From the IMG/VR virus record IMGVR_UViG_3300037247_000358, positions 1 to 50,476 of that record: a stretch of 50,476 nt of DNA, one strand, 5' to 3'. The stretch comes from a virus. Lineage: Duplodnaviria > Caudoviricetes. The stretch's first letter is position 1. The number at the start of each line of letters is the position of its first letter. The notes under the pieces are model-generated. The model searched no databases and had not been told where the DNA came from. It saw nothing but the letters and a program-made list of their open reading frames with translations. The translations under genes and the position numbers were made by a program. This document shows, one piece after another, positions 996 through 44,605 of the stretch.

Positions 996-1392
996 ACAGG
1001 CTGCGTGGATAATACACAGAGGCATGAAATATGTCCCACAAAGGGATGTTGCTCAAGCACGGGCGGAAGTGTTGGCGGCGTGTGCCAAAAAGGCAAGGAC
1101 TTGGTACACAAACCATCCAAAGGGCAAGCACGGGCGAGATTATCTAGGAATACCGACGTGTTCGCCCTGCGAAGATGCTAGGCGTCTTGAGGAATCTATC
1201 CTTGAAGTCCAACCCGCCGCCTCCAGCCTGGAAGCGTTGCTGCGGGAGGCCGAGCTGAAGGGTCGCATCGCTCAGCTCAACATGATGAAAGGCGATGATG
1301 CAGGTGGCATGTGGTTTCCCGACCCAGGCACACAGACAATAAACGCCCGCATCGCCGAGTTAGAGAAGGCCCGCGCCAGTGGGGGGAAATAA
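988..1392 (+). CDS. Hypothetical protein (start moved to MAEQAAW)
   Basis: GGAGGAG RBS before ATG 988; stop overlaps next ATG (TAATG). Confidence 0.65.
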   Translation: MAEQAAWIIHRGMKYVPQRDVAQARAEVLAACAKKARTWYTNHPKGKHGRDYLGIPTCSPCEDARRLEESILEVQPAASSLEALLREAELKGRIAQLNMMKGDDAGGMWFPDPGTQTINARIAELEKARASGGK

Positions 1393-1784
1393 TGCCAACG
1401 CGAAGACGGCTTCCCCCAACCCGAAAAGCCATAATCCATAAGTTCAACCTCGGCGAAACTAGGGTCTACCTCATAGTAGGGCTATATGAGGACGGAACTC
1501 CTGGCGAAATCTTCGTCAACATTAACAAGCAAGGCTCCACCATCTCCGGCCTCATGGACTCCTTTGCCATTCTTATGAGCTATGCTCTCCAATACGGACT
1601 CCCCCTAAAAGAGATGGTAGCCAAATTTAAGCACGTCCGTTTTGAGCCAGCAGGCTTAACAAAGAACAAGGACATTCCTATGGCAAGCTCTGTAATAGAC
1701 TACATCTTTACTTGGCTTGAAAAGGAATTTGTGTTGAAATCGCCTGGAGGCTCTGATGCTACCAGTCCAAATAAACAAGATTGA
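1392..1784 (+). CDS. Stand-alone class II ribonucleotide reductase C-terminal (TSCPD/NrdJb-like) domain
   Basis: RRRLP.TR.AIIHKF...YLIVGLYEDGTPGEIF....KQGSTISGLMDSFA...S.ALQYG.PL......F...RFEPAG.T.N.DI..ASS.IDYIF.WL is the typical NrdJ C-terminal sequence. Confidence 0.85.
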   Translation: MPTRRRLPPTRKAIIHKFNLGETRVYLIVGLYEDGTPGEIFVNINKQGSTISGLMDSFAILMSYALQYGLPLKEMVAKFKHVRFEPAGLTKNKDIPMASSVIDYIFTWLEKEFVLKSPGGSDATSPNKQD

Positions 1785-3054
1785 TGCCACCAGTAGGATA
1801 AGAAAGGAGCTTGGGGACATTGATGAGCTTGCTAATTCCATCAAGGAGTTTGGGCAGATACAACCAATCATCCTGAGACAAGATTTTGACAACAGAAAGA
1901 TACACCTTGTAGTTGGTGAGCGCAGGCTGCGGGCCTTACAAAGACTTGGGACCACAGAACTCCAACACGGTATAAACTTTCTCTGGCTTGATGAGAACAA
2001 CGACAGTGGCCAAACGGAGCTATTTTTCAGAAGCGTCGAACTCGAAGAAAATCTACGGCGCAAAGAACTCACCTGGCAAGAAGAACTAACCGCAAAGCAG
2101 GAGCTTCTGGAACTAATGCAAAACATCCACGGCGTAGCCAAAATTGGCAAGCCACGCGAGGGAGAAAGCTCCGGCTTCGGCGTCCGCACCCTTGCAGCCA
2201 TGCTTGGTGAATCACCAGCAACAACCTCCAAAGACCTAGAGGTTGCAAGAGCAATAAAAATGTTCCCGCACCTCAAGAGAGCAGATACTAAAGAGTCTGC
2301 CCGTAGGCAATTATCAATTCTAGGCGCAGTGGCCGCCATGACAATAGCAGGAAAGGAGAAACGGAATGCCCAAACCCCACAGGACAAAAATTGGAAACTA
2401 TATGAGGGCAACTTTAACCAAACCATCCATCAAATCCAGGATGGTTCAGTTGACCTCGTTTATACGGATTTGCCGTTTGGCGTGGACCTTTCGCAAATGT
2501 CTAAGCATACAAAAGGAGTGGTATCATACCAGGACGGTCGGGATATTATCGTTGGGAATCTGGAGAATTTCGCCAGAGAGTCCTTTAGAATTCTACATGA
2601 GGACAGGTTCGCCGTTGTATTCTTCGGATTTAACTACTACCACGACTTGGTCAACGCACTTAAATCAGCAGGATTTGCGGTCAATCTTGTCCCTGTTGTA
2701 TGGTACAAGCATACCCGTAGCACAGAAAACCCAAATACGCGATACGCCAATGCCTACGACCCCGGAATCGTGGCCTGGAAAGGTAGACCGGTATTCATAA
2801 GGCCCGGCCAAGCCAACGTCATTGAAATAGCTCCGGTACCAGGCACCGACCGGCTGCAAATTGCCCAGCAGCCAGTGGAACTGGTAACGAAGTTTATCAA
2901 AGATATGGTTGCGCCAGGGGCCACAGTCGTGGATTTTATGGCTGGTTCCGGTACGACGGGGGTGGCTGCCGTTAAGGCTGGCTGCAACGTAATTATGTTT
3001 GAGAAGGAGCCCTCCGCGTGTGCAGTTATCAAAGCAAGGATGGGAGCATTATAA
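1756..3054 (+). CDS. ParB/Spo0J (CTPase + HTH) fused to a beta-class N6-adenine/N4-cytosine DNA methyltransferase
   Basis: IDELANSIKEFGQIQPI, LVVGERRLRA, EENLRRKEL (ParB boxes); GVRTLAAMLGESPATTSKDL (HTH); TDLPF (motif IV); QQPVELV and VVDFMAGSGTTGVAA (motifs X/I). Confidence 0.9.
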   Translation: MLPVQINKIDATSRIRKELGDIDELANSIKEFGQIQPIILRQDFDNRKIHLVVGERRLRALQRLGTTELQHGINFLWLDENNDSGQTELFFRSVELEENLRRKELTWQEELTAKQELLELMQNIHGVAKIGKPREGESSGFGVRTLAAMLGESPATTSKDLEVARAIKMFPHLKRADTKESARRQLSILGAVAAMTIAGKEKRNAQTPQDKNWKLYEGNFNQTIHQIQDGSVDLVYTDLPFGVDLSQMSKHTKGVVSYQDGRDIIVGNLENFARESFRILHEDRFAVVFFGFNYYHDLVNALKSAGFAVNLVPVVWYKHTRSTENPNTRYANAYDPGIVAWKGRPVFIRPGQANVIEIAPVPGTDRLQIAQQPVELVTKFIKDMVAPGATVVDFMAGSGTTGVAAVKAGCNVIMFEKEPSACAVIKARMGAL

Positions 3055-4017: not shown

Positions 4018-6588
4018 ATGGGCCAAGCAACAGACTACCTAACGACTCTGTGCCAACGTAAGGGCATTCGGTATGTCCACCCCCGCGGCCCTAGGAACTC
4101 CGCCCTGTGGCTGGTAGGCGAAGCCGGTGGTGAGGAGGAAGAAAAGAAACAACTAGCGTTTGTTGGCCCCGCTGGATGGCAGGTTGGTGGCCAGTTGAGG
4201 GAAGCAGACCTGGACGAAGGCAGTATTTGTTTTACCAACCCGTACAAAGTACGGCCGCCAGACAACACACTATCCCGTCTAACGGAGTTAGGAATACCTC
4301 TTGACCTTTACGAGGCCCAGTTTTGGGAGGAACTAGATGAACACAAACCAACTATTATCATCGCGGCAGGTGCAACTGCTCTTGGACTTCTGTGCCCTCA
4401 TACAGTCCAAAGGAGGACGGGTACTGCTCCAATCGGACGGTGGCGTGGAAGCCTTCTGCAAAGTCCTAGACTTGGATGGCCTCACTACGTTATACCAATG
4501 CAGCATCCCGCCTTCATACTTCGTAACTACGAAGAACGAGATATGGCCATCTTCGCTCTTCGACGAGCTAAGGAAGAACACGATTTTTGGCTACAATTAG
4601 GAAAGGTTCAACCGCTTCCTGAGCGGCAACTCTTAGTTGAGCCAACCTTTGACGACGCCTTTGCATTTATGATGGACTGCCTTAGCAGCCCAAACCCGTT
4701 GCTAGGTGTTGATATTGAAATGCTGCGGCGACGATTCCCGTACACAATTGCCCTGGCACCTGACCCAAAACTCGCTATGAGCATGAGCTTCTGGGAATAC
4801 CCTGCGGAGCAATGTGTTAAACTGTGGCGGGTGCTTGACCAGTTGATGAGGACCAAGAATGTAATTGGCCAAAACTTTAGCAACTTTGATGCCTGTTGGC
4901 TCCAGCACATCGGCTTCCGCCCCAACATAGAAAAACACCACGATACTATGGTACGCCACCACGTCCTGTGGCCAGAACTAAGTCACAAACTCCAATTTAT
5001 GGTGATGCAGTACACACGAGAACCATACTTCAAGGACGAAGGCAAGAACTGGGACCTACGCCGTGAAAGCAAACGGAAGTTAATGACTTACAACTGCAAA
5101 GACGCAGCAACTACAGATGAAATCTACCTGGGACAAGAGGAAGAATTCGATGAGCGGCCGGAGCTTCGTAGATTCTACGAAGAGTATGAACTCCCACTTA
5201 GCCGAAAACTACACTACGTCAGTAAGCGTGGTATCTTAACAGACGTTGACAAAATGAAGGCCCTCCGTAAATATATACTTATAGAGATTGCCAACGCCTG
5301 CACAGAGGCATCGAAGATTGTAGGTGTACCAGTGGCACCTGACAAGATAGCTGCTGAAAGTATTGGCCACGGAGCTATTAACCTAAACTCTCCACCACAG
5401 GTAGCAGCGATGCTAAAAACCCAAGGGTTAGTATTGCCACGGAGCAGAGATACCGGACGTGAGTCCACCGCAGCGGACAAACTAAACAAAATGTATGCCG
5501 AGCGTGGGGACCCAATACTAAAACACATCCTTCGGGTCCGTGAACTTAGCAAAATGAAAGGAACCTACATTGACGCAAAGCTGCTGGATAACGTCTTCCT
5601 CTGTGAATACGTTGTAACCGGAACTGTGACAGGTCGCCGGAGCAGCCGCAGCAACTTCATGCGCTACGGAGGCAATCTACAAAACCAACCCAAACACAGT
5701 GACCTGGCAAAAAAATACAGAGAGTGTCTCATAGCCCGACCAGGGAAGATATTTCTTGAATGTGACCAAGCCCAGGCTGAGGACTGGGTCGTGCAGGGAA
5801 TCATAACAGATTCTTCTGGACACCGTAAAGGGCTGGACGAACTGCTCAACCACGTTGACCGCCACCGCAGACTAGCATCATTTATTTTTGGAAAGCCGCA
5901 GAGTGAGTGTGGCAAAGGCACACCTGAAAGGTTCCTTGGGAAGAAAACTAGGCACGCAGGAAACTATGGTATGCGGGGCCCAACAATGTCACAGTCCCTA
6001 GCCAAGGAAGATTTCCACCTTGCGCCTGATATTTGCGACAGTCTTCTTGACAAGTTCCATAGCGCAGAACCAGAAATAAGGGGAGTATTCCATCCCTATG
6101 TAGAAACAGGGTTACTGACCAAACGTCGTTTGGTCACCCCACTGGGACGTGCGAGAGACTTCTTTGGTATGCGCCCCCGCCACGACAACAATAAAATTTT
6201 CCGTGAAGCATACGCCTACATTCCACAAAGCACTGTCGGGGACAACAATGGAATGGCACTGTTGTATTGTGAGGATAATTCCCCTGGTCTTGTTATCATG
6301 GACACCCACGACGCACTCACCCTGGAGGTTGATGACAATGTAAAAGCCATAATAGACGGACACAAGTTGTTGACCGAGGCATTTGACAGGACGTTGAGAT
6401 TCCCACGGGGCCTTGAAATCAAAATTCCAATAGAGTTTGAGATTGGCTATAACCTAAAAGGCATGGTCGAGTGCAACAACTTCACGGCAACTGGATTAGA
6501 GAGTATCTTGGGTTCATTAAGACAACGACGGGAAGCCCTGATTGTTACCACTGGTGGTGTGCAGTTACAGTCGTCGCTGCCGCACTAA
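4018..6588 (+). CDS. polA: Family A DNA polymerase with N-terminal uracil-DNA-glycosylase (family 4-like) and 3'-5' exonuclease domains
   Basis: UDG: LVGEAGG..E......FVGPAG, TNPYKVRPPDN, HPAFILR; Exo: GVDIE, GQNFSNFD, YNCKDA; Pol: TGTVTGRRSS, NLQNQP, motif A CDQAQAE, motif B RFLGKKTRHAGNYG, motif C THDAL. Confidence 0.93.
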   Translation: MGQATDYLTTLCQRKGIRYVHPRGPRNSALWLVGEAGGEEEEKKQLAFVGPAGWQVGGQLREADLDEGSICFTNPYKVRPPDNTLSRLTELGIPLDLYEAQFWEELDEHKPTIIIAAGATALGLLCPHTVQRRTGTAPIGRWRGSLLQSPRLGWPHYVIPMQHPAFILRNYEERDMAIFALRRAKEEHDFWLQLGKVQPLPERQLLVEPTFDDAFAFMMDCLSSPNPLLGVDIEMLRRRFPYTIALAPDPKLAMSMSFWEYPAEQCVKLWRVLDQLMRTKNVIGQNFSNFDACWLQHIGFRPNIEKHHDTMVRHHVLWPELSHKLQFMVMQYTREPYFKDEGKNWDLRRESKRKLMTYNCKDAATTDEIYLGQEEEFDERPELRRFYEEYELPLSRKLHYVSKRGILTDVDKMKALRKYILIEIANACTEASKIVGVPVAPDKIAAESIGHGAINLNSPPQVAAMLKTQGLVLPRSRDTGRESTAADKLNKMYAERGDPILKHILRVRELSKMKGTYIDAKLLDNVFLCEYVVTGTVTGRRSSRSNFMRYGGNLQNQPKHSDLAKKYRECLIARPGKIFLECDQAQAEDWVVQGIITDSSGHRKGLDELLNHVDRHRRLASFIFGKPQSECGKGTPERFLGKKTRHAGNYGMRGPTMSQSLAKEDFHLAPDICDSLLDKFHSAEPEIRGVFHPYVETGLLTKRRLVTPLGRARDFFGMRPRHDNNKIFREAYAYIPQSTVGDNNGMALLYCEDNSPGLVIMDTHDALTLEVDDNVKAIIDGHKLLTEAFDRTLRFPRGLEIKIPIEFEIGYNLKGMVECNNFTATGLESILGSLRQRREALIVTTGGVQLQSSLPH

Positions 6589-7664
6589 AACGCCATTGCT
6601 GGTTCAGCAGAGGGAGTTGGAAACTTTACCCCAACATCTTCACCGTTCTGGTCGGGCGCCCTGGGATAGGAAAGGGCGAAGCTATGAACCCAATCATTGG
6701 CCTAGTAAAAGAGGCCAACAGTTCCAATGTGTTAAGTGACAAACTGACAATACAATATGTATTGGAAAAGCTCTCAAACGGTTTTGCCGTGACCTCCGTC
6801 GGACAGTCCGGCATCAAAATAGGTATAGATACATCAGCAATTATAGTCTCCTCCGAACTTTCGGTATTCCTCAAGGGGGCAAAGGAAGAACTAGGGACTT
6901 TATGCGACCTTTGGGACAGCAGAGAGCAACCATTTGATTATGGAACTAGATACAAAGGACTATATACAATCGAGAAACCATGCCTCTCGCTACTCGGTGC
7001 CTCAGCACCAGAGTGGTTGATAAAGTCAGTGCCAACTGATGCCTCCGGTGGAGGTTTCACCAGGAGAGTGAACTTTGTGCTAGGTAGCAAGAGGTCAAGG
7101 ACAATTCCGTGGCCACAACTAAACCACGGGCCCGCAAAATCTAACCTGGTAAATGGCTTACAACACATACACACCCATGTTAGGGGTGAGTTCAAGTTTG
7201 CTGAAAGCGCAAAGAAACTGTTTGTGTCTTACCACAAAGACTCAGTACCGGACGAGTATGATGATGAGGCGTTAGCAGGGTACAAGAGCACGAAGTGGGC
7301 ACATGCAACAAAGATTTGCATGGCACTTTCAGCAGCAGAAAGTGACAGTAGGATAATGGAAAAATCCCACCTCGAAGAGGCCATCCAATATGTTGATGAG
7401 GTGGTTAGAACAATACCAGTTGTGTTCAGAGCCTCTGGCGAAAGTGACTTAGTATCCGCAGCGGATAAGGTGTTGAGATTTATGGAAATAAAGGGCTACT
7501 GTACCAGAGGTGAGATACTACACGCCAACTGGCGACACATATCGCAGGATGATTTGACGCTTGTTTTAGCAACTCTGAAAGAGGGTGGGTTGATAACAGA
7601 AATTATACAGGGGAACAGGATTATTTACAAGGTAGTTCCACCAAAAGGAGGAAAGACACCATGA
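6471..7664 (+). CDS. DUF3987-like AAA+ replicative helicase, C-terminal winged-helix-like region, no primase domain
   Basis: LYPNIFTVLVGRPGIGKG (Walker A), SSELSVFL, LCDLWD, PCLSLLGA, GGFTRR; follows the polymerase. Confidence 0.8.
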   Translation: MQQLHGNWIREYLGFIKTTTGSPDCYHWWCAVTVVAAALKRHCWFSRGSWKLYPNIFTVLVGRPGIGKGEAMNPIIGLVKEANSSNVLSDKLTIQYVLEKLSNGFAVTSVGQSGIKIGIDTSAIIVSSELSVFLKGAKEELGTLCDLWDSREQPFDYGTRYKGLYTIEKPCLSLLGASAPEWLIKSVPTDASGGGFTRRVNFVLGSKRSRTIPWPQLNHGPAKSNLVNGLQHIHTHVRGEFKFAESAKKLFVSYHKDSVPDEYDDEALAGYKSTKWAHATKICMALSAAESDSRIMEKSHLEEAIQYVDEVVRTIPVVFRASGESDLVSAADKVLRFMEIKGYCTRGEILHANWRHISQDDLTLVLATLKEGGLITEIIQGNRIIYKVVPPKGGKTP

Positions 7665-8922: not shown

Positions 8923-8939
8923 TGTTTAGAGTATAAACA
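8923..8939. promoter_or_regulatory. TGTTTA-N5-TAAACA palindrome, site 1 (parS-like)
   Basis: TGTTTAGAGTATAAACA; identical to site 4. Confidence 0.75.
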
Positions 8940-18447: not shown

Positions 18448-18464
18448 TGTTTACACTATAAACA
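18448..18464. promoter_or_regulatory. TGTTTA-N5-TAAACA palindrome, site 2 (parS-like)
   Basis: AACTGTTTA-CACTA-TAAACAGTT, 9-bp arms spanning 18445..18467. Confidence 0.75.
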
Positions 18465-26204: not shown

Positions 26205-26459
26205 CTACAACTCCCTGTTGTCCTCTTCATCTCGTTTCAGAATGTCAAGCGGCTGCATTTCTGTCTCTTGACCGAACTCCAAAATGTCTGCGATAATGCG
26301 CTCCCGCTCGAACATAATGGGATTGTCATAACATTCGTGGTCAATACACAGCAGCAACCCCTGTTGCTTGACAAGCAGGGATATAGGGTGGTCCAATCCA
26401 CATCTGTCGCAACGGGCCCAGGGAATGCCCTGGATACCACTGCCACCCTGTTTTGGCAT
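26205..26459 (-). CDS. Small Zn-binding protein (CDRC...C-x3-C)
   Basis: GAGG RBS; directly downstream of the capsid gene. Confidence 0.7.
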   Translation of the reverse strand: MPKQGGSGIQGIPWARCDRCGLDHPISLLVKQQGLLLCIDHECYDNPIMFERERIIADILEFGQETEMQPLDILKRDEEDNREL

Positions 26460-26461
26460 AA

Positions 26462-26478
26462 TGTTTACCTCGTAAACA
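26462..26478. promoter_or_regulatory. TGTTTA-N5-TAAACA palindrome, site 3 (parS-like)
   Basis: TGTTTACCTCGTAAACA followed by GTTAGCCAA, as at site 4; overlaps an RBS. Confidence 0.75.
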
Positions 26479-26511: not shown

Positions 26512-27465
26512 TTAAGGCCCGTTGGAACCCCAGGTTCCCAGCCAGGAAGTAGCACCTGAACTAAACCGCATGAACGAAATTTGCTTGATGCTCCGGGTGT
26601 CGAAATCATCAGCAAAGTCCTCGTCCAGCGCCTTACGGGTAAAGTGCTTCAGTTGGTGGGACTCCTTATCACAGACCATGAACCAGGCAGACTGACTTGT
26701 GAAGTAGTGGCAGATAAAGTAATTCAAATCCTCTTTGATGAGGGCATTGATTTCGTTATCAGCCGTGAAGGGCCTATGTGGCGAGCCCAAAATCTCTCGC
26801 GCAATCCACTTCAACTCAGGTGGAATGACAAGGTACTTTGGCTTCAAAACCACCGGCAGCCCTTGGCTGTCAATCAACCGCTCAAACTGGTTAATTGAAA
26901 GCTGGATGGAGGTGAAACTCAGGTCAACATCCGTCGCAGGGCGGTTGGGGTAAGTACCAACCGCACCAATGACGTTAGTCAGGCCCGGGCCGACGCTAGT
27001 CGCCGTTGTACCCCCTAGCAATGGGTGTTGGTTGTTGAAGAGACTCACACCATCGGTGGTTGTGACAGTGGTAAAGCCGAGGTTAAAGATGTTCCATGTC
27101 TGCTGTTCCTTCGTGAAATGCGCGGAACGAGCCAGTGCCTTTGGCACCTGCATGATGATGTTGTACTGGTCATCTTCATACAACTCCCACGAGGTGCGAA
27201 CACCAAGAGCATAGGTAGTATGCAAATACCGCTTGGTACCACCCTGGATAGCATCTTGGTAGGTCACCGACTCCGCTTCGGGTTTTTCTGGCATCGGGCC
27301 CAGGCCGGAAAACTCCACTTCATCTTCGTATGCCTTGTCACTGTCAGGCATATTGAAGATGTGAGAGTATTCCTCATCACGCTGGAGCAAATCCAGCCAG
27401 TGTACGAAGTTGTGATGGAGGCCAGGGGCCATCAACTGCGCGAACTGCCCACGTACCATTGTCAT
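26512..27465 (-). CDS. Major capsid protein (HK97 fold, Mu gpT-like family)
   Basis: SDKAYE......GLG.M.EK.E...V.Y, Y.H.TYALG...S.E..EDD.Y, DGVSLF...HP, PK.L..PPEL...A..IL.S. Confidence 0.9.
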   Translation of the reverse strand: MTMVRGQFAQLMAPGLHHNFVHWLDLLQRDEEYSHIFNMPDSDKAYEDEVEFSGLGPMPEKPEAESVTYQDAIQGGTKRYLHTTYALGVRTSWELYEDDQYNIIMQVPKALARSAHFTKEQQTWNIFNLGFTTVTTTDGVSLFNNQHPLLGGTTATSVGPGLTNVIGAVGTYPNRPATDVDLSFTSIQLSINQFERLIDSQGLPVVLKPKYLVIPPELKWIAREILGSPHRPFTADNEINALIKEDLNYFICHYFTSQSAWFMVCDKESHQLKHFTRKALDEDFADDFDTRSIKQISFMRFSSGATSWLGTWGSNGP

Positions 27466-36309: not shown

Positions 36310-36495
36310 ACTTCGTTACCGAAAGGACTTCGTTACCAAGCTACGCTTCGCAGCCTTCTACGAAACTGCCAAACAGCACCATGTTCGCTTTTTCGTCGCT
36401 AGATGAAGTGTTTAGAGTATAAACAGTTAGCCAAGCTGCGCTCTTCGGCTTTCTGTGAAACGGCTAAAGGCTAGTACGTTACTGGGCTAAAGGCC
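36310..36495 (+). repeat. Short direct and degenerate repeats in the divergent intergenic region
   Basis: ACTTCGTTACC at 36310 and 36327; ~40-bp degenerate pair CCAAGCTrCGCT...GAAAC.GC.AAA at 36336 and 36431; GGCTAAAGGC twice. Confidence 0.6.
36409..36425. promoter_or_regulatory. TGTTTA-N5-TAAACA palindrome, site 4 (parS-like)
   Basis: TGTTTAGAGTATAAACA-GTTAGCCAA. Confidence 0.75.
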
Positions 36496-38025: not shown

Positions 38026-38054
38026 TTGACACAACAGTTCCACTGTGTGATAAT
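38026..38054 (+). promoter_or_regulatory. Sigma70-type early promoter
   Basis: TTGACA-N17-GATAAT with extended TG. Confidence 0.75.
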
Positions 38055-40186: not shown

Positions 40187-40217
40187 CAACACCAAACCGT
40201 TCACAGAGTAAACACTT

Positions 40218-40472: not shown

Positions 40473-40500
40473 TTGACACAGCTTCGCTATAAGCTATAAT
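40473..40500 (+). promoter_or_regulatory. Consensus sigma70 promoter
   Basis: TTGACA-N16-TATAAT. Confidence 0.85.
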
Positions 40501-43215: not shown

Positions 43216-43496
43216 CCGTCTGGATAATCAAACGGCTACGAGTACAAGCCCTTGCAGGGTGGTTGTTGGTATGTATTCTAGCAACCATGCTGTATGCAGA
43301 ACGGAGAGTAAATGCAGGTCTGGTGGTTGAAGCATTCAGCATCCTAACCGTTGCTGAGAGCAATGCAGCTATGCTCACCGTGAGCAACACTACACTGGCA
43401 GAGTGCAATGAATACTTTGACCAGTACATCTCCCATATGAGAGCGGAGGGAGAATGGTTGGAGGTAATAGCAGAGGCTACGGACGTGACTAAATGA
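43212..43496 (+). CDS. Single-TM membrane protein directly upstream of FtsK
   Basis: ALAGWLLVCILATMLYA; ATGA coupling to both neighbours. Confidence 0.6.
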   Translation: MTVWIIKRLRVQALAGWLLVCILATMLYAERRVNAGLVVEAFSILTVAESNAAMLTVSNTTLAECNEYFDQYISHMRAEGEWLEVIAEATDVTK

Positions 43497-44605
43497 CCCC
43501 CGAACAAATCAACGTAGTTGCCAAGGTAACCCTGAAACTACATGAGCTTGGCTTCGAGGCTGAGTTCCAACCGCCAATATCCATTGGCCCAATCATTTCA
43601 GTCTATCGTTACCTGCCAAAGGGCAGGACGAAGGTCACAAACATCGAAAGCCTGGCGGCAGACTTTGCAGTTACACTTGGTGTTGAGGATGTCTTTGTCA
43701 AGCGGCTGCCTGGCGAGACCTCTGTAGGAGTTTACGTTCCCAACAAAGACCGCAAGTGGGTCCCATGGACACAAATTGTGAACGAAGTCTGGGCACACAG
43801 AGCCAAAGTCCCCGTGCCGCTGGGTTTCGGTGTAACTCACCTTGGTGAACCGTTCGTTGAAGACTTGACAGCGTTGCCACACCTGCTGATAGCCGGAAGT
43901 ACCGGCTCTGGCAAATCCATACTACTAAGCGCCATGATTGCCAGTATTGTTTACAGTGTAAACAGTTCGGATGTTAAGTTTGTACTCAGTGACAGCAAAC
44001 ACGGTGCAGAGTTTGGCTACTTTGCAGGGTCCCCACACCTACTGTTTGAGCCTGCCACTAGCGTTTATCAAACCATGGAGCAACTGGATTGGATTCTCTC
44101 CGAGCTAGACGACAGGATGAAATCCATAGCCAAAGCAAGTTGTAGGAACATCAAGGAATACCACGAGCGTGGCTTCAAGATGCCATTCATCGTAATTGTC
44201 CTCGATGAACTAGCAGATTTGCTGTCGTTCCGTGTTGGCAAAAGGAACGAAAAGGCAGCTGAAGAGAAACTTCAGAAGATTGTGCAGAAAAGCCGAGCCA
44301 CTGGCATCCACATGATTGCTGCTACGCAGAGACCAGATGTAAAGGTGGTTAGTGGAACGATTAAAGCCAACTTCCCTGCCAGGCTGAGCCTGCGACTACC
44401 AACCAGTGCAGACAGTAAAACAGTGCTCGGCACCGGCGGAGCCGAGCATTTGCTTAGCAAGGGAGACATGCTATTCATTAGTCCAAACAGGCCAGGAATG
44501 TTGAGGCTCCACGCCCCGTGGGTGGAACTGGATGATATAAAGGCCGCTGTGGACATGAGTGTTCAGAGGGAAAAACTACAACAGGGGGTGTCAGATGGCA
44601 ACTGA
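43493..44605 (+). CDS. FtsK/SpoIIIE-family DNA translocase, alpha+beta motor domains only
   Basis: GPIISVY (alpha domain), PHLLIAGSTGSGKS, IVIVLDELADL, KSRATGIHMIAATQRP, GAEHLL.KGDML. Confidence 0.92.
   Translation: MTPEQINVVAKVTLKLHELGFEAEFQPPISIGPIISVYRYLPKGRTKVTNIESLAADFAVTLGVEDVFVKRLPGETSVGVYVPNKDRKWVPWTQIVNEVWAHRAKVPVPLGFGVTHLGEPFVEDLTALPHLLIAGSTGSGKSILLSAMIASIVYSVNSSDVKFVLSDSKHGAEFGYFAGSPHLLFEPATSVYQTMEQLDWILSELDDRMKSIAKASCRNIKEYHERGFKMPFIVIVLDELADLLSFRVGKRNEKAAEEKLQKIVQKSRATGIHMIAATQRPDVKVVSGTIKANFPARLSLRLPTSADSKTVLGTGGAEHLLSKGDMLFISPNRPGMLRLHAPWVELDDIKAAVDMSVQREKLQQGVSDGN
43948..43964. promoter_or_regulatory. TGTTTA-N5-TAAACA palindrome, site 5 (parS-like), inside the FtsK CDS
   Basis: TGTTTACAGTGTAAACA-GTTCGGA; 23/24 identical to the reverse complement of 18441..18464. 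Confidence 0.75.

What the first reader, a model, noticed from the sequence alone, without database searches (positions are those of the whole stretch)
1756..3054. Candidate new system: a parS-loaded, ParB-clamp-delivered DNA methyltransferase
Seen: the MTase is fused to a complete Spo0J-type ParB, with intact GERRLRA and EENLRR CTPase motifs plus an HTH, and I can find no ParA gene. Seen: five TGTTTA-N5-TAAACA palindromes are spread around the genome. Established: ParB proteins are CTP-dependent clamps that load at palindromic parS sites and spread over kilobases. Inference: the fusion loads only on DNA carrying these sites and slides, so methylation is confined to the phage chromosome (self-marking against restriction, or a replication/packaging mark) rather than serving partitioning. 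ParB-MTase fusions occur in phages, but I am not aware of one tied to cognate dispersed loading sites.
Basis: partly seen in the sequence, partly recalled or inferred. Interest (0 to 1): 0.9.

Follow-up and report, generated by a model that had tools for sequence, protein, structure and literature searches.

The report
Phage ParB-methyltransferase with dispersed palindromes
A phage enzyme that joins a ParB-type DNA-binding switch to a DNA methylase comes with a few evenly scattered palindromes that change in step from phage to phage, which suggests, but does not prove, that they are its docking sites.

Summary
ORF 1756..3054 (432 aa) is a ParB N-domain plus ParB-type HTH fused to a beta-class N6/N4 DNA methyltransferase. 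No ParA was found. TGTTTA-N5-TAAACA occurs 5 times against 0.01 expected. "Complete Spo0J-type ParB" is overstated, because the C-terminal dimerisation domain and the ParA-binding motif are missing and TIGR00180 scores just below its cut-off.

The main new result is comparative. Under one objective rule, 22 of 35 phage genomes with this ParB module carry their own dispersed palindrome family, against 1 of 12 related genomes without it (Fisher P 0.0018). That one is probably a draft-join artefact.

- Half-sites share a core (..AAC(A), mostly 15-17 bp) but differ between genomes.
- Sites sit at syntenic places.
- Motif distance follows ParB distance (both the N-domain and the HTH region), not DUF3987 helicase distance, after controlling for DNA polymerase. 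The signal is mixed within clades.
- The protein is predicted to dimerise through the methylase domain.

Against:
- 13 of 35 carriers show no family, including the four closest sequenced relatives (G001-G003, G039).
- Sister phages that lost the methylase keep the sites.
- Binding, nucleotide use, sliding and methylation target are all untested.

Verdict: a cognate ParB-site system (KorB-like) is likely. Clamp-delivered, cis-confined methylation is plausible but only inferred. The same scan had already noted these palindromes on this window.

The parts
1756..3054 (+). ParB(N+HTH)-DNA methyltransferase fusion gene, 432 aa
   Evidence: ORF. Pfam PF02195 + PF01555. PHROG DNA methyltransferase and ParB-like families. 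513 homologues at E<=0.001; 117 of the 120 listed carry both domains.
1756..2130 (+). ParB N-terminal nucleotide-binding fold (residues 1-125), with GERRLRA 54-60 and EENLRR 97-102
   Evidence: Best solved match is Noc 7ng0 (E 1.7e-10).
2167..2310 (+). ParB-type helix-turn-helix DNA-binding region (residues ~138-185)
   Evidence: Helices 143-150 and 154-169 in the AF2 model. Homology to Spo0J 1vz0 and to ParB 7bnr runs through this region. Noc 7nfu_A aligns over 193 columns. Alignment of 33 relatives.
2371..3051 (+). Beta-class N6/N4 DNA methyltransferase domain (residues 206-432). Motif IV is DLPF at 238-241 and motif I is GSGTTG at 397-402. Predicted dimer interface is residues 285-355.
   Evidence: Foldseek best matches are CcrM 6pbd (E 1.3e-13), M.BceJIV 8urk, TTHA0409 and M1.HpyAVI. 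Homodimer score 0.74 against best control 0.00.
8923..8939 (.). Palindrome 1, TGTTTAGAGTATAAACA, at the convergent junction of the rightward replication genes and the leftward late genes
   Evidence: The same place holds a family site in 8 of the 14 near-clade genomes examined.
18448..18464 (.). Palindrome 2, TGTTTACACTATAAACA (extends to AACTGTTTA..TAAACAGTT), between two late genes and 15 nt before the start of the 875-aa gene
26462..26478 (.). Palindrome 3, TGTTTACCTCGTAAACA, between the major capsid gene (26512..27465, -) and the next gene (26205..26459, -)
   Evidence: G011 has a site at the same place.
36409..36425 (.). Palindrome 4, TGTTTAGAGTATAAACA, in the divergent intergenic region between the late and early blocks
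   Evidence: It lies about 190 nt from an 11/12 sigma-70-like match on the - strand.
43948..43964 (.). Palindrome 5, TGTTTACAGTGTAAACA, inside the FtsK/SpoIIIE-family gene 43493..44605 at codon ~152
   Evidence: G004 has its own variant at the same codon.
40198..40214 (.). Degenerate sixth copy, CGTTCACAGAGTAAACA (2 mismatches), intergenic
   Evidence: 6 matches at <=2 mismatches against 2.02 expected. Shared flank.

Best explanation
The five (six) palindromes are the cognate DNA sites of the ParB-type HTH of the fusion protein. This would be a KorB/parS-like arrangement of one phage-encoded ParB-family protein plus a handful of dispersed sites on its own chromosome. The protein dimerises through its methylase domain, which stands in for the missing ParB C-terminal domain. 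It binds the sites as a dimer and, by analogy with ParB, Noc and KorB, closes its nucleotide-bound N-domains into a clamp that can leave the site and diffuse over neighbouring kilobases. This concentrates the methylase on phage DNA.

Shown here: domain make-up, conservation of the nucleotide-pocket boxes, reality of the sites, their co-occurrence with the ParB module across phages, their concerted change, and their syntenic placement.

Inferred: that ParB is the binder, nucleotide dependence, clamp closure, sliding, and any restriction of methylation to phage DNA.
For: 1. Sites are real: 5 against 0.01 expected.
2. Co-occurrence: under one objective rule, 22 of 35 genomes with the ParB module have a dispersed palindrome family, against 1 of 12 related genomes that keep the DNA polymerase/DUF3987 module but lack ParB (Fisher P 0.0018). 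A ParB profile finds nothing in the 12.
3. Only three window proteins are conserved across (nearly) all 25 relatives compared: ParB-MTase (25 of 25), DNA polymerase (24 of 25) and DUF3987 (24 of 25). The palindromes nevertheless share one half-site core and geometry across near and distant clades, so the binder should be one of these three.
4. Partial Mantel test controlling for DNA polymerase distance, on 20 genomes: ParB N-domain r 0.33 (P 0.0002) and ParB HTH r 0.31 (P 0.0006), against DUF3987 core r 0.06 (P 0.22) and C-terminal region r 0.10 (P 0.16).
5. The motif differs per genome while the sites keep syntenic places. That is the signature of a phage-encoded cognate factor.
6. Sites lie near parB: within 500 bp in 10 of 21 genomes (expected 5.11, P 0.015), and within 100 bp upstream in 4 of 21 (expected 0.31, P 0.00024; window chosen after seeing the data).
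7. Spacing is more even than random: window P 0.015, Fisher-combined P 0.016 over 21 genomes.
8. Homodimer prediction: score 0.74 against best control 0.00. That mark was reached by 20 of 30 proteins solved as pairs and by 1 of 23 solved as single chains. Runs agree in >=83% of contacts, pLDDT >=70, and the interface is residues 285-355 in the methylase domain. Beta-class methylases are solved as dimers, so this pass may come from likeness to those structures.
9. Precedent: KorB is a CTP-dependent sliding clamp loaded at OB sites (PMC11790492, passages read).
Against: - 13 of 35 carriers show no family, among them G001-G003 and G039, the closest sequenced relatives (about 60% identity for G001-G003), and Microcystis phage Mel-JY34. 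A looser search found nothing clear in them either.
- Only 3 of 32 relatives have the window's exact motif.
- In the window itself no site lies within 5.8 kb of the gene.
- Proximity to parB is not significant by Fisher combination (P 0.10).
- The Mantel signal for the HTH vanishes within the distant clade (r -0.17, P 0.77). The N-domain, which does not read DNA, tracks the motif as well as the HTH does, and genomes are phylogenetically non-independent.
- Sister phages whose ParB lacks the methylase keep the palindromes (4 of 6), so the sites have a methylase-independent role.
- The recognition helix (ESPATTSKDL) is unlike the canonical ParB helix. The half-site resembles the KorA operator TGTTTAGCTAAACA as much as it resembles parS, so likeness to known sites does not name the binder.
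- The 12 ParB-less genomes come from about five lineages only.
- Motif IV is DLPF, not DPPY, so even methylase activity is inferred.
Confidence: 0.4

Rival explanations
1. ParB does bind the palindromes, but the system is mainly a regulator or organiser of the phage chromosome. It could do KorB-like long-range silencing or timing, act as a roadblock at operon borders, or compact the DNA. The methylase is then an ordinary anti-restriction or epigenetic enzyme that is merely fused to it, and its reach is not set by loading and sliding.
For: Sites sit at operon borders and gene junctions: the convergent junction in 8 of 14 near-clade genomes, the divergent early region, places next to capsid and tail genes, and just upstream of parB in G011, G025 and G035. 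ParB-only sister phages keep the sites (4 of 6) and have a short C-terminal tail instead of the methylase. KorB is a precedent.
Against: None of the five sites coincides with a sigma-70-like match of 10/12 or better. One of five lies inside a gene, and in G007 all five listed sites lie inside greedy ORF calls. The fusion is kept in all 12 distant-clade genomes and in most near-clade ones, which argues that tethering the methylase matters.
Confidence: 0.25
2. The palindromes are bound by another dimeric DNA-binding protein, and the ParB-methylase is unrelated to them. Candidates are a small KorA-like HTH repressor, the winged-helix C-terminus of the DUF3987 primase-helicase (as phage P4 alpha binds its repeats; this is recalled, not checked), or a host factor.
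For: The half-site TGTTTAG/CTAAACA equals the KorA operator halves. DUF3987 is as universal as ParB in the group, and its C-terminal ~80 residues read like a winged helix (sequence; my reading). In the near clade its C-terminus also tracks the motif weakly (partial r 0.38, P 0.061). Small fast-evolving regulators would escape my tblastn matrix. Cluster O mycobacteriophages have 34 similar 17-bp palindromes whose binder is unknown (PMC4351075).
Against: All 12 relatives that keep DUF3987 and the polymerase but lack ParB lack such families, apart from one likely artefact. Over all 20 genomes DUF3987 distance does not track the motif once polymerase distance is removed. A host factor does not fit motifs that differ between closely related phages.
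Confidence: 0.25
3. The palindromes act as RNA or single-strand DNA hairpins (processing sites, attenuators, terminators, priming signals) and not as duplex protein sites.
For: Four of five are intergenic between co-directional or converging genes. Site 2 can form an 11-pair stem (-11.2 kcal/mol). The Desulfofustis phage copies are about 25-nt perfect hairpins at gene junctions.
Against: The other stems are weak (-2.2 to -6.4 kcal/mol). There is no T-run and no terminator-like call on the transcribed strand. All copies within a genome share the same arm sequence instead of covarying. One site is in frame inside a gene. The two mismatches of the degenerate copy would be wobble pairs only on the non-coding strand (read).
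Confidence: 0.07

Closest known systems
KorB-OB system of plasmid RK2 (ParB-family CTP-dependent sliding clamp with dispersed operators)
   Same: A ParB N-domain plus HTH protein on a mobile element, with several copies of one palindrome spread over the replicon and no need for segregation to explain them. PMC11790492 (passages read) shows CTP-dependent clamp closure at OB sites and sliding.
   Different: KorB has its own C-terminal dimerisation domain, a KorA partner and an IncC/ParA partner (the last is recalled). Here the C-terminus is a DNA methylase, no ParA is present, and no KorA-like partner was looked for.
Chromosomal ParB-parS and Noc-NBS
   Same: Box II/III motifs and an HTH homologous to solved ParB/Noc. 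The sites are palindromes with TGTT...AACA ends.
   Different: The sites are 17 bp, not 16. The recognition helix differs. TIGR00180 is below its cut-off. There is no C-terminal domain and no ParA motif.
Phage ParB-CTPase fold fused to N6_N4 methyltransferase, as surveyed in PMC12704722 (PNAS 2025)
   Same: The same Pfam architecture (PF02195 + PF01555). [quoted passage not shown]
   Different: The passages I read name no DNA sites for these fusions and list no N6N4 fusion among the NTP binders. Its supplements were not visible to me and may bear on both points.
ParB-dependent thymine dioxygenases of phages (PMC13229309, abstract read)
   Same: A phage ParB homologue coupled to a post-replicative DNA-modifying enzyme.
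   Different: There ParB is a separate activator. It keeps the C-terminal domain, lacks an obvious DNA-binding domain, and mutating its NTP residues had no effect.
17-bp repeat TGTTCGG-N3-CCGAACA of Cluster O mycobacteriophages (PMC4351075, passages read)
   Same: The same 7+3+7 geometry and TGTT..AACA ends. It is dispersed through a lytic-looking phage genome that encodes a ParB-like domain protein and no ParA. The authors predict a dimeric binder and a role other than transcription initiation.
   Different: There are 34 copies, not 5. The phage is an unrelated siphovirus. Its ParB-like protein did not match my ParB query. The paper proposes no link to it.
CcrM / M.BceJIV beta-class adenine methyltransferases
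   Same: These are the best fold matches of the C-terminal domain and are solved as dimers on DNA. M.BceJIV recognises GTWWAC (abstract), which fits GTTTAC/GTAAAC.
   Different: Identity is only 18-23%. In the window only 5 of the 10 half-sites fit GTWWAC (read), so the palindrome is not simply a pair of such targets. GTWWAC is not enriched (39 against 39.3 expected).

Membership tests
Canonical ParB/Spo0J partition protein (TIGR00180) | N-terminal ParB nucleotide-binding fold with GxRRxRA and ENLxR boxes | tested here: met
   PF02195 41.3 bits against cut-off 26.3. GERRLRA at 54-60 and EENLRR at 97-102. These boxes are invariant in 36 of 36 homologues.
Canonical ParB/Spo0J partition protein (TIGR00180) | Central HTH DNA-binding domain | tested here: met
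   phmmer aligns Spo0J 1vz0 to residues 21-192 and ParB 7bnr to 21-188. Foldseek aligns Noc 7nfu_A over 193 columns. However, no Pfam ParB HTH family was reported at E<=0.1.
Canonical ParB/Spo0J partition protein (TIGR00180) | C-terminal dimerisation domain | tested here: not met
   Residues 206-432 are a methyltransferase domain.
Canonical ParB/Spo0J partition protein (TIGR00180) | N-terminal ParA-binding motif and a parA partner gene | tested here: not met
   The motif [LFI]G[KR]G[LFI] (as defined in PMC12704722) is absent. PF13614 and PF01656 give 0 matches in the whole record.
Canonical ParB/Spo0J partition protein (TIGR00180) | Score above the curated family cut-off | tested here: not met
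   55.5 bits against 58.45; only profile positions 23-121 of 186 are matched.
Canonical ParB/Spo0J partition protein (TIGR00180) | CTP binding and hydrolysis, and clamp closure at the site | not testable with these tools
   PMC12704722 states that nucleotide specificity cannot be predicted from sequence or from AlphaFold3.
Beta-class N6/N4 DNA methyltransferase (PF01555) | Family score above cut-off and a beta-class fold | tested here: met
   69.3 bits against 26.7. Foldseek CcrM 6pbd E 1.3e-13, M.BceJIV, TTHA0409, M1.HpyAVI.
Beta-class N6/N4 DNA methyltransferase (PF01555) | Catalytic motif IV (D/S/N)PP(Y/F) before the SAM motif I FxGxG | tested here: inconclusive
   The order is right (motif IV at 238-241, GSGTTG at 397-402). 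Motif IV is D-L-P-F, and it is D-L-P-[FY] in 34 of 36 homologues. The canonical form is recalled. A conserved variant suggests function but does not show it.
Beta-class N6/N4 DNA methyltransferase (PF01555) | Methyl transfer to a defined DNA target | not testable with these tools
   No methylome data were available. The target is unknown.
KorB-like ParB-family protein with dispersed operators | Several copies of one palindrome dispersed on the same replicon | tested here: met
   5 exact copies, gaps 7.5-15.5 kb. Spacing is more even than random (P 0.015).
KorB-like ParB-family protein with dispersed operators | The ParB-family protein binds those palindromes | not testable with these tools
   Only indirect support: co-occurrence 22 of 35 against 1 of 12, partial Mantel test, and synteny with concerted change.
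KorB-like ParB-family protein with dispersed operators | KorA-type clamp-locking partner | not tested
   No search was made for a KorA homologue.

The most novel reading that the evidence does not exclude
A large group of tailed phages (hundreds of contigs) uses a topological self-marking device. An NTP-gated ParB clamp, whose ring is closed by a methyltransferase dimer, loads only at lineage-specific parS-like sites spaced every 8-10 kb on the phage chromosome. It then methylates as it slides, so only DNA carrying the phage's own sites is modified. Specificity of loading, and not of the methylase, would define 'self'.
Probability: 0.2. Interest if true: 0.85.

Novelty: new variant of a known kind. 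Interest (0 to 1): 0.62.

Why it matters
ParB-fold fusions to DNA methylases were recently flagged as frequent in phages but of unknown role (PMC12704722). This window and its relatives give that class a concrete, testable partner. Each phage has a short list of dispersed 15-17-bp palindromes that co-occur with the ParB module and change with it. If binding is confirmed, there would be natural pairs of proteins and sites (GTTTAC, GTTAAC, GTTGC, GTTCAA and GTCCCA types). These could be used to study how ParB-family specificity evolves, whether a clamp can carry an enzyme along DNA, and how a phage could confine a DNA modification to its own chromosome. It may also explain the long-unexplained 17-bp repeats of Cluster O mycobacteriophages.

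Tried and rejected
Chance: rejected (0.01 expected; Markov shuffles give families of at most 2-3).

Same motif in all relatives: rejected. The exact window motif is in only 3 of 32 records, and the relatives have their own variants.

Promoters or terminators: none of the five sites coincides with a sigma-70-like match of 10/12 or better. Site 5 overlaps only a 9/12 match on the antisense strand. A terminator-like call next to site 3 is on the non-transcribed strand.

Methylase target pairs (GTWWAC, as for M.BceJIV): only half of the half-sites fit, and there is no enrichment.

Isolated half-sites: not enriched (26 against 26.7 expected).

Simple reading of a recognition code from the HTH alignment: none found.

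ParB-less member of the near clade: G038 looked like one, but its contig ends exactly at the ParB region, so it was dropped from all counts.

Looser search for imperfect palindromes in the 'empty' carriers: the null gives 4-7 and nothing convincing emerged.

Raw threshold without the dispersal rule: 3 of 6 ParB-less isolates pass, for trivial reasons. These are a poly-C/G hairpin in Kuura's terminal repeat, one 30-nt AT-rich cluster in vir526, and identical 19-mers at the joins of the draft EBPR podovirus 3 record. With those counted, Fisher P is 0.39. With the objective rule (at least 3 loci more than 1 kb apart, arms of at least 3 different letters, P<1e-5) the counts are 22 of 35 against 1 of 12. 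That rule also fails G004 and G011, whose arms have only two letters, although their families are clear.

Mantel tests used 20 of 23 genomes with a motif model. G032 and G008 (13-bp motifs of another kind) and G025 (incomplete, no polymerase or DUF3987) were left out.

The parS2 likeness could not be checked in print: one search found one irrelevant preprint.

Literature searches for a described link between phage ParB-methylase fusions and dispersed sites found none. The library lacks most subscription papers, and supplements were closed.

Megablast of the first 12 kb against named phages: no match.

A single-protein scan of viral contigs found nothing, and an eight-row DUF3987 alignment was too diverse to search with.
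Full report
WHAT IS THERE. The window is a complete IMG/VR virus record of 50,476 nt with a 127-nt terminal direct repeat. Genes run rightward in 1-8.8 kb and 36.5-50.4 kb and leftward (late genes) in 8.9-35.7 kb. ORF 1756..3054 (+) encodes 432 aa. Pfam finds ParB_N (residues 18-68, 41.3 bits, cut-off 26.3) and N6_N4_Mtase (residues 232-426, 69.3 bits, cut-off 26.7). PHROGs agrees. GERRLRA is at 54-60, EENLRR at 97-102, motif IV is D-L-P-F at 238-241, and GSGTTG is at 397-402.

HOMOLOGY AND FOLD. Homology to solved ParB/Noc proteins extends through the HTH: Spo0J 1vz0 aligns to residues 21-192 and ParB 7bnr to 21-188. The AF2 model has mean pLDDT 84.2 and pTM 0.63. It matches CcrM, M.BceJIV, TTHA0409 and M1.HpyAVI with its C-terminal domain. 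It matches Noc 7nfu_A (193 columns, 29% identity) and ParB-CDP 6sdk with its N-terminal half. The canonical ParB C-terminal domain and the ParA-binding motif are absent. TIGR00180 is just under its cut-off (55.5 against 58.45 bits). No ParA is encoded. The protein is therefore a ParB N-domain plus HTH carrying a methylase, not a complete Spo0J.

THE PALINDROMES. TGTTTA-N5-TAAACA occurs at 8923, 18448, 26462, 36409 and 43948, against 0.01 expected. A 2-mismatch copy is at 40198. Four of the five share the flank TAAACAGTT on the + strand, and site 2 extends to a 23-nt palindrome. Four are intergenic:
- the convergent junction;
- between two late genes, 15 nt before the 875-aa gene;
- between the capsid gene and the next gene;
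- the divergent region.

One lies in frame inside an FtsK/SpoIIIE-family gene. Spacing is more even than random (P 0.015). None coincides with a strong promoter-like or terminator-like match. As RNA hairpins they are weak, at -2.2 to -11.2 kcal/mol.

THE FAMILY. The fusion has 513 homologues at E<=0.001 among 8000 scored candidates. 117 of the 120 listed carry both Pfam domains, and many sit on contigs of 47-50 kb. In 36 aligned homologues the nucleotide-pocket boxes are invariant and motif IV is D-L-P-[FY] in 34. IMG/VR holds at least 479 loci that encode a relative. I fetched 32 whole IMG/VR records and 10 GenBank phage records besides the window.

WHICH GENES ARE SHARED. Against 25 relatives, only ParB-MTase (25 of 25), the UDG-fused family A DNA polymerase (24 of 25) and a DUF3987 primase-helicase (24 of 25) are conserved across (nearly) all of them. 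A near clade also shares capsid, portal, terminase and many early genes. A distant clade shares little else. Named phages with the fusion show the same order, ParB-MTase > polymerase > DUF3987: Desulfofustis phage LS06-2018-MD01, Microcystis phage Mel-JY34, Vibrio phage ABTNL-3 and isolate ctMlz233.

PARB-ONLY SISTER PHAGES. Six of the fetched near-clade records (G016, G018, G025, G033-G035) carry, at the same place, a 242-269-aa ParB with N-domain, HTH and a short C-terminal tail instead of the methylase. In the loci I inspected (L024, L030, L043, L049 and L052) it is followed by an ATPase-GNAT gene. That the tail is a ParB-like dimerisation domain is my reading of the sequence and was not tested.

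THE MAIN RESULT. The window's exact motif is rare elsewhere (3 of 32 records), but most relatives have a dispersed palindrome of their own:
- GTTAAC-N3-GTTAAC in G005, G006, G007 and G037
- TGTTGC-N5-GCAACA, 7 copies, in G011
- TTGTTyMC-N3-GKAAACAA in G004
- TGTCAA-N5-TTGACA, 7 copies, in G034
- TGTTCA-N5-TGAACA in G035
- GTTCAA-N3-TTGAAC types, 5-12 copies, in G010, G012, G014, G015 and G024
- GTCAA-N3-TTGAC, 9 copies, in G019
- GCTATGTCCCA-N3-TGGGACATAGC, 6 copies, in the Desulfofustis phage
- GGTTTAC-N6-GTAAACC, 3 copies, in ctMlz233

Aligned from the centre outward, the half-sites share a core ..AAC(A).

One objective rule was applied to all genomes: exact 5+5 arms of at least three letters, at least 3 loci more than 1 kb apart, and P<1e-5. 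Under it, 22 of 35 genomes with the ParB module pass. Only 1 of 12 related genomes pass that keep the polymerase/DUF3987 module but have no ParB by tblastn, Pfam and a family profile. Those 12 are PaP2, Tiera, Kuura, Aeromonas P5, EBPR podovirus 3, vir526 and six IMG/VR records. Fisher P is 0.0018. The one pass is a set of identical 19-mers at the joins and end of a draft record. Among carriers, 4 of 6 ParB-only genomes and 18 of 29 fusion genomes pass.

WHO BINDS THEM. Within the near clade the sites keep their places while the motif changes:
- the convergent junction 0.07-1.06 kb after the g7661 homologue, in 8 of 14 genomes;
- the linker codons ~209-220 of the ParB-MTase gene, in 4;
- directly upstream of parB in G011, G025 and G035 (3-64 bp), and 487 bp upstream in G034;
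- inside FtsK in 4, with the window and G004 at the same codon.

Concerted change at conserved places points to a phage-encoded cognate factor. Among the universal proteins, the rivals are ParB (HTH) and DUF3987 (whose C-terminus reads like a winged helix).

The partial Mantel test controlled for polymerase distance:
- All 20 genomes: ParB HTH r 0.31 (P 0.0006), ParB N r 0.33 (P 0.0002), DUF3987 core r 0.06 (P 0.22), DUF3987 C-terminus r 0.10 (P 0.16).
- Near clade: HTH r 0.53 (P 0.026), DUF3987 C-terminus r 0.38 (P 0.061).
- Distant clade: HTH r -0.17 (P 0.77), ParB N r 0.42 (P 0.029).

This favours ParB overall but is mixed within clades, and the N-domain tracks the motif as well as the HTH does. 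The ParB-less relatives keep DUF3987 and lack palindromes, which also speaks against DUF3987.

Proximity of a site to parB is suggestive only:
- within 500 bp in 10 of 21 genomes (expected 5.11, P 0.015);
- within 100 bp upstream in 4 of 21 (expected 0.31, P 0.00024; post hoc);
- by Fisher combination of the per-genome P values, P 0.10.

HOW IT MAY WORK. The homodimer prediction passes: score 0.74 against best control 0.00. That mark was reached by 20 of 30 solved pairs and by 1 of 23 single chains. Runs agree in >=83% of contacts and pLDDT is >=70. The interface is residues 285-355 of the methylase domain. Beta-class methylases are solved as dimers, so this pass may reflect that likeness. A C-terminal dimer plus nucleotide-gated N-domains is the ParB/KorB clamp layout (KorB: PMC11790492). 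The model follows that the protein loads at the sites and spreads, keeping the methylase on phage DNA. No step of this was tested.

EVIDENCE AGAINST.
- 13 of 35 carriers have no detectable family, including the four closest sequenced relatives and Mel-JY34.
- ParB-only phages keep the sites.
- The window has no site within 5.8 kb of the gene.
- The half-site equals the KorA operator halves, so likeness to parS is not diagnostic.
- Genomes are not independent samples.
- The genome avoids GATC (1 against about 140 expected) and lacks six 6-bp palindromes. The methylase therefore does not make restriction-site avoidance unnecessary.

WHAT IS KNOWN.
- PMC12704722 reports ParB-fold/N6_N4 methylase fusions as frequent in phages, with unknown role. 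In the passages read it names no DNA sites for them.
- PMC13229309 shows a phage ParB activating a DNA dioxygenase (abstract).
- PMC4351075 describes 34 dispersed TGTTCGG-N3-CCGAACA repeats in Cluster O mycobacteriophages. These phages encode a ParB-like protein and no ParA, and the repeats have no assigned binder.
- Four searches found no paper that ties such fusions to dispersed cognate sites. Supplements and most subscription journals were out of reach.

VERDICT. A cognate ParB-site system of the KorB kind is the best reading. I put the chance that ParB binds the sites at about 0.65, summed over the two readings that assume it. Clamp-delivered, cis-confined methylation is a fair hypothesis at about 0.2-0.4. 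This is a new variant of a known kind, and it is directly testable.

Noticed in passing
whole window: GATC occurs once against about 137-142 expected. AAGCTT, CTGCAG, ACTAGT, AGCGCT, CTCGAG and GCCGGC are absent (8-15 expected each), and TTTAAA is absent (14.7 expected). This is strong avoidance of restriction-type palindromes.
   Followed up: partly
L024:1506-3382, L030:9983-11859, L043:9983-12288 (sister phages): At the place of the fusion gene, these phages have a 242-254-aa ParB (N-domain, HTH and a ~50-aa tail that reads like a strand-helix-strand dimerisation domain). It is followed by a gene with an ABC-type Walker A and a GNAT acetyltransferase domain. This may be another ParB plus enzyme pairing.
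   Followed up: partly
window 43493-44605: A stand-alone FtsK/SpoIIIE-family gene (PF01580 E 8.7e-36, FtsK_alpha) is conserved in 12 of 25 relatives. It carries a palindrome at codon ~152 in both the window and G004, and at other codons in G007 and G034.
   Followed up: partly
window 1311-1784: A TSCPD-domain protein (PF12637, E 1.1e-11) overlaps the start of the ParB-methylase gene. It has no homologue in the 25 relatives compared.
   Followed up: no
L256 (OP947158.1) 249, 2251, 15474, 23059, 29970, 41281, ~37104: Desulfofustis phage LS06-2018-MD01 has six or seven copies of a ~25-nt perfect palindrome around GTCCCA-N3-TGGGAC in a 34% GC genome. They are mostly at gene junctions, and one lies 45 nt before a gene annotated as a transcriptional regulator.
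   Followed up: partly
L264 (JF412296.1) 9408, 9423, 13823, 29060, 29080, 38979: Identical 19-mers sit at pseudogene boundaries and at the record end of the draft EBPR podovirus 3 sequence. They are probably joining artefacts and not biology.
   Followed up: no
G032 (L111-L113) 22499-48926: One near-clade relative has a different 13-bp palindrome, GCACC-N3-GGTGC, in seven copies (P 2e-12), all in one half of the genome. G008 has CTAAC-N3-GTTAG in three copies, one inside the ParB-MTase linker.
   Followed up: no
window 6471-7664: The DUF3987 primase-helicase overlaps the end of the polymerase gene by ~118 nt. Its last ~80 residues read like a winged-helix DNA-binding domain. It is the main alternative binder for the palindromes.
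   Followed up: partly
window 40473-40500, 38026-38054, 36218-36191 (-): The early region has sigma-70-like matches of 12/12, 11/12 and 11/12. The region has 12 matches against 7.4 expected. The phage probably relies on host RNA polymerase for early genes.
   Followed up: no
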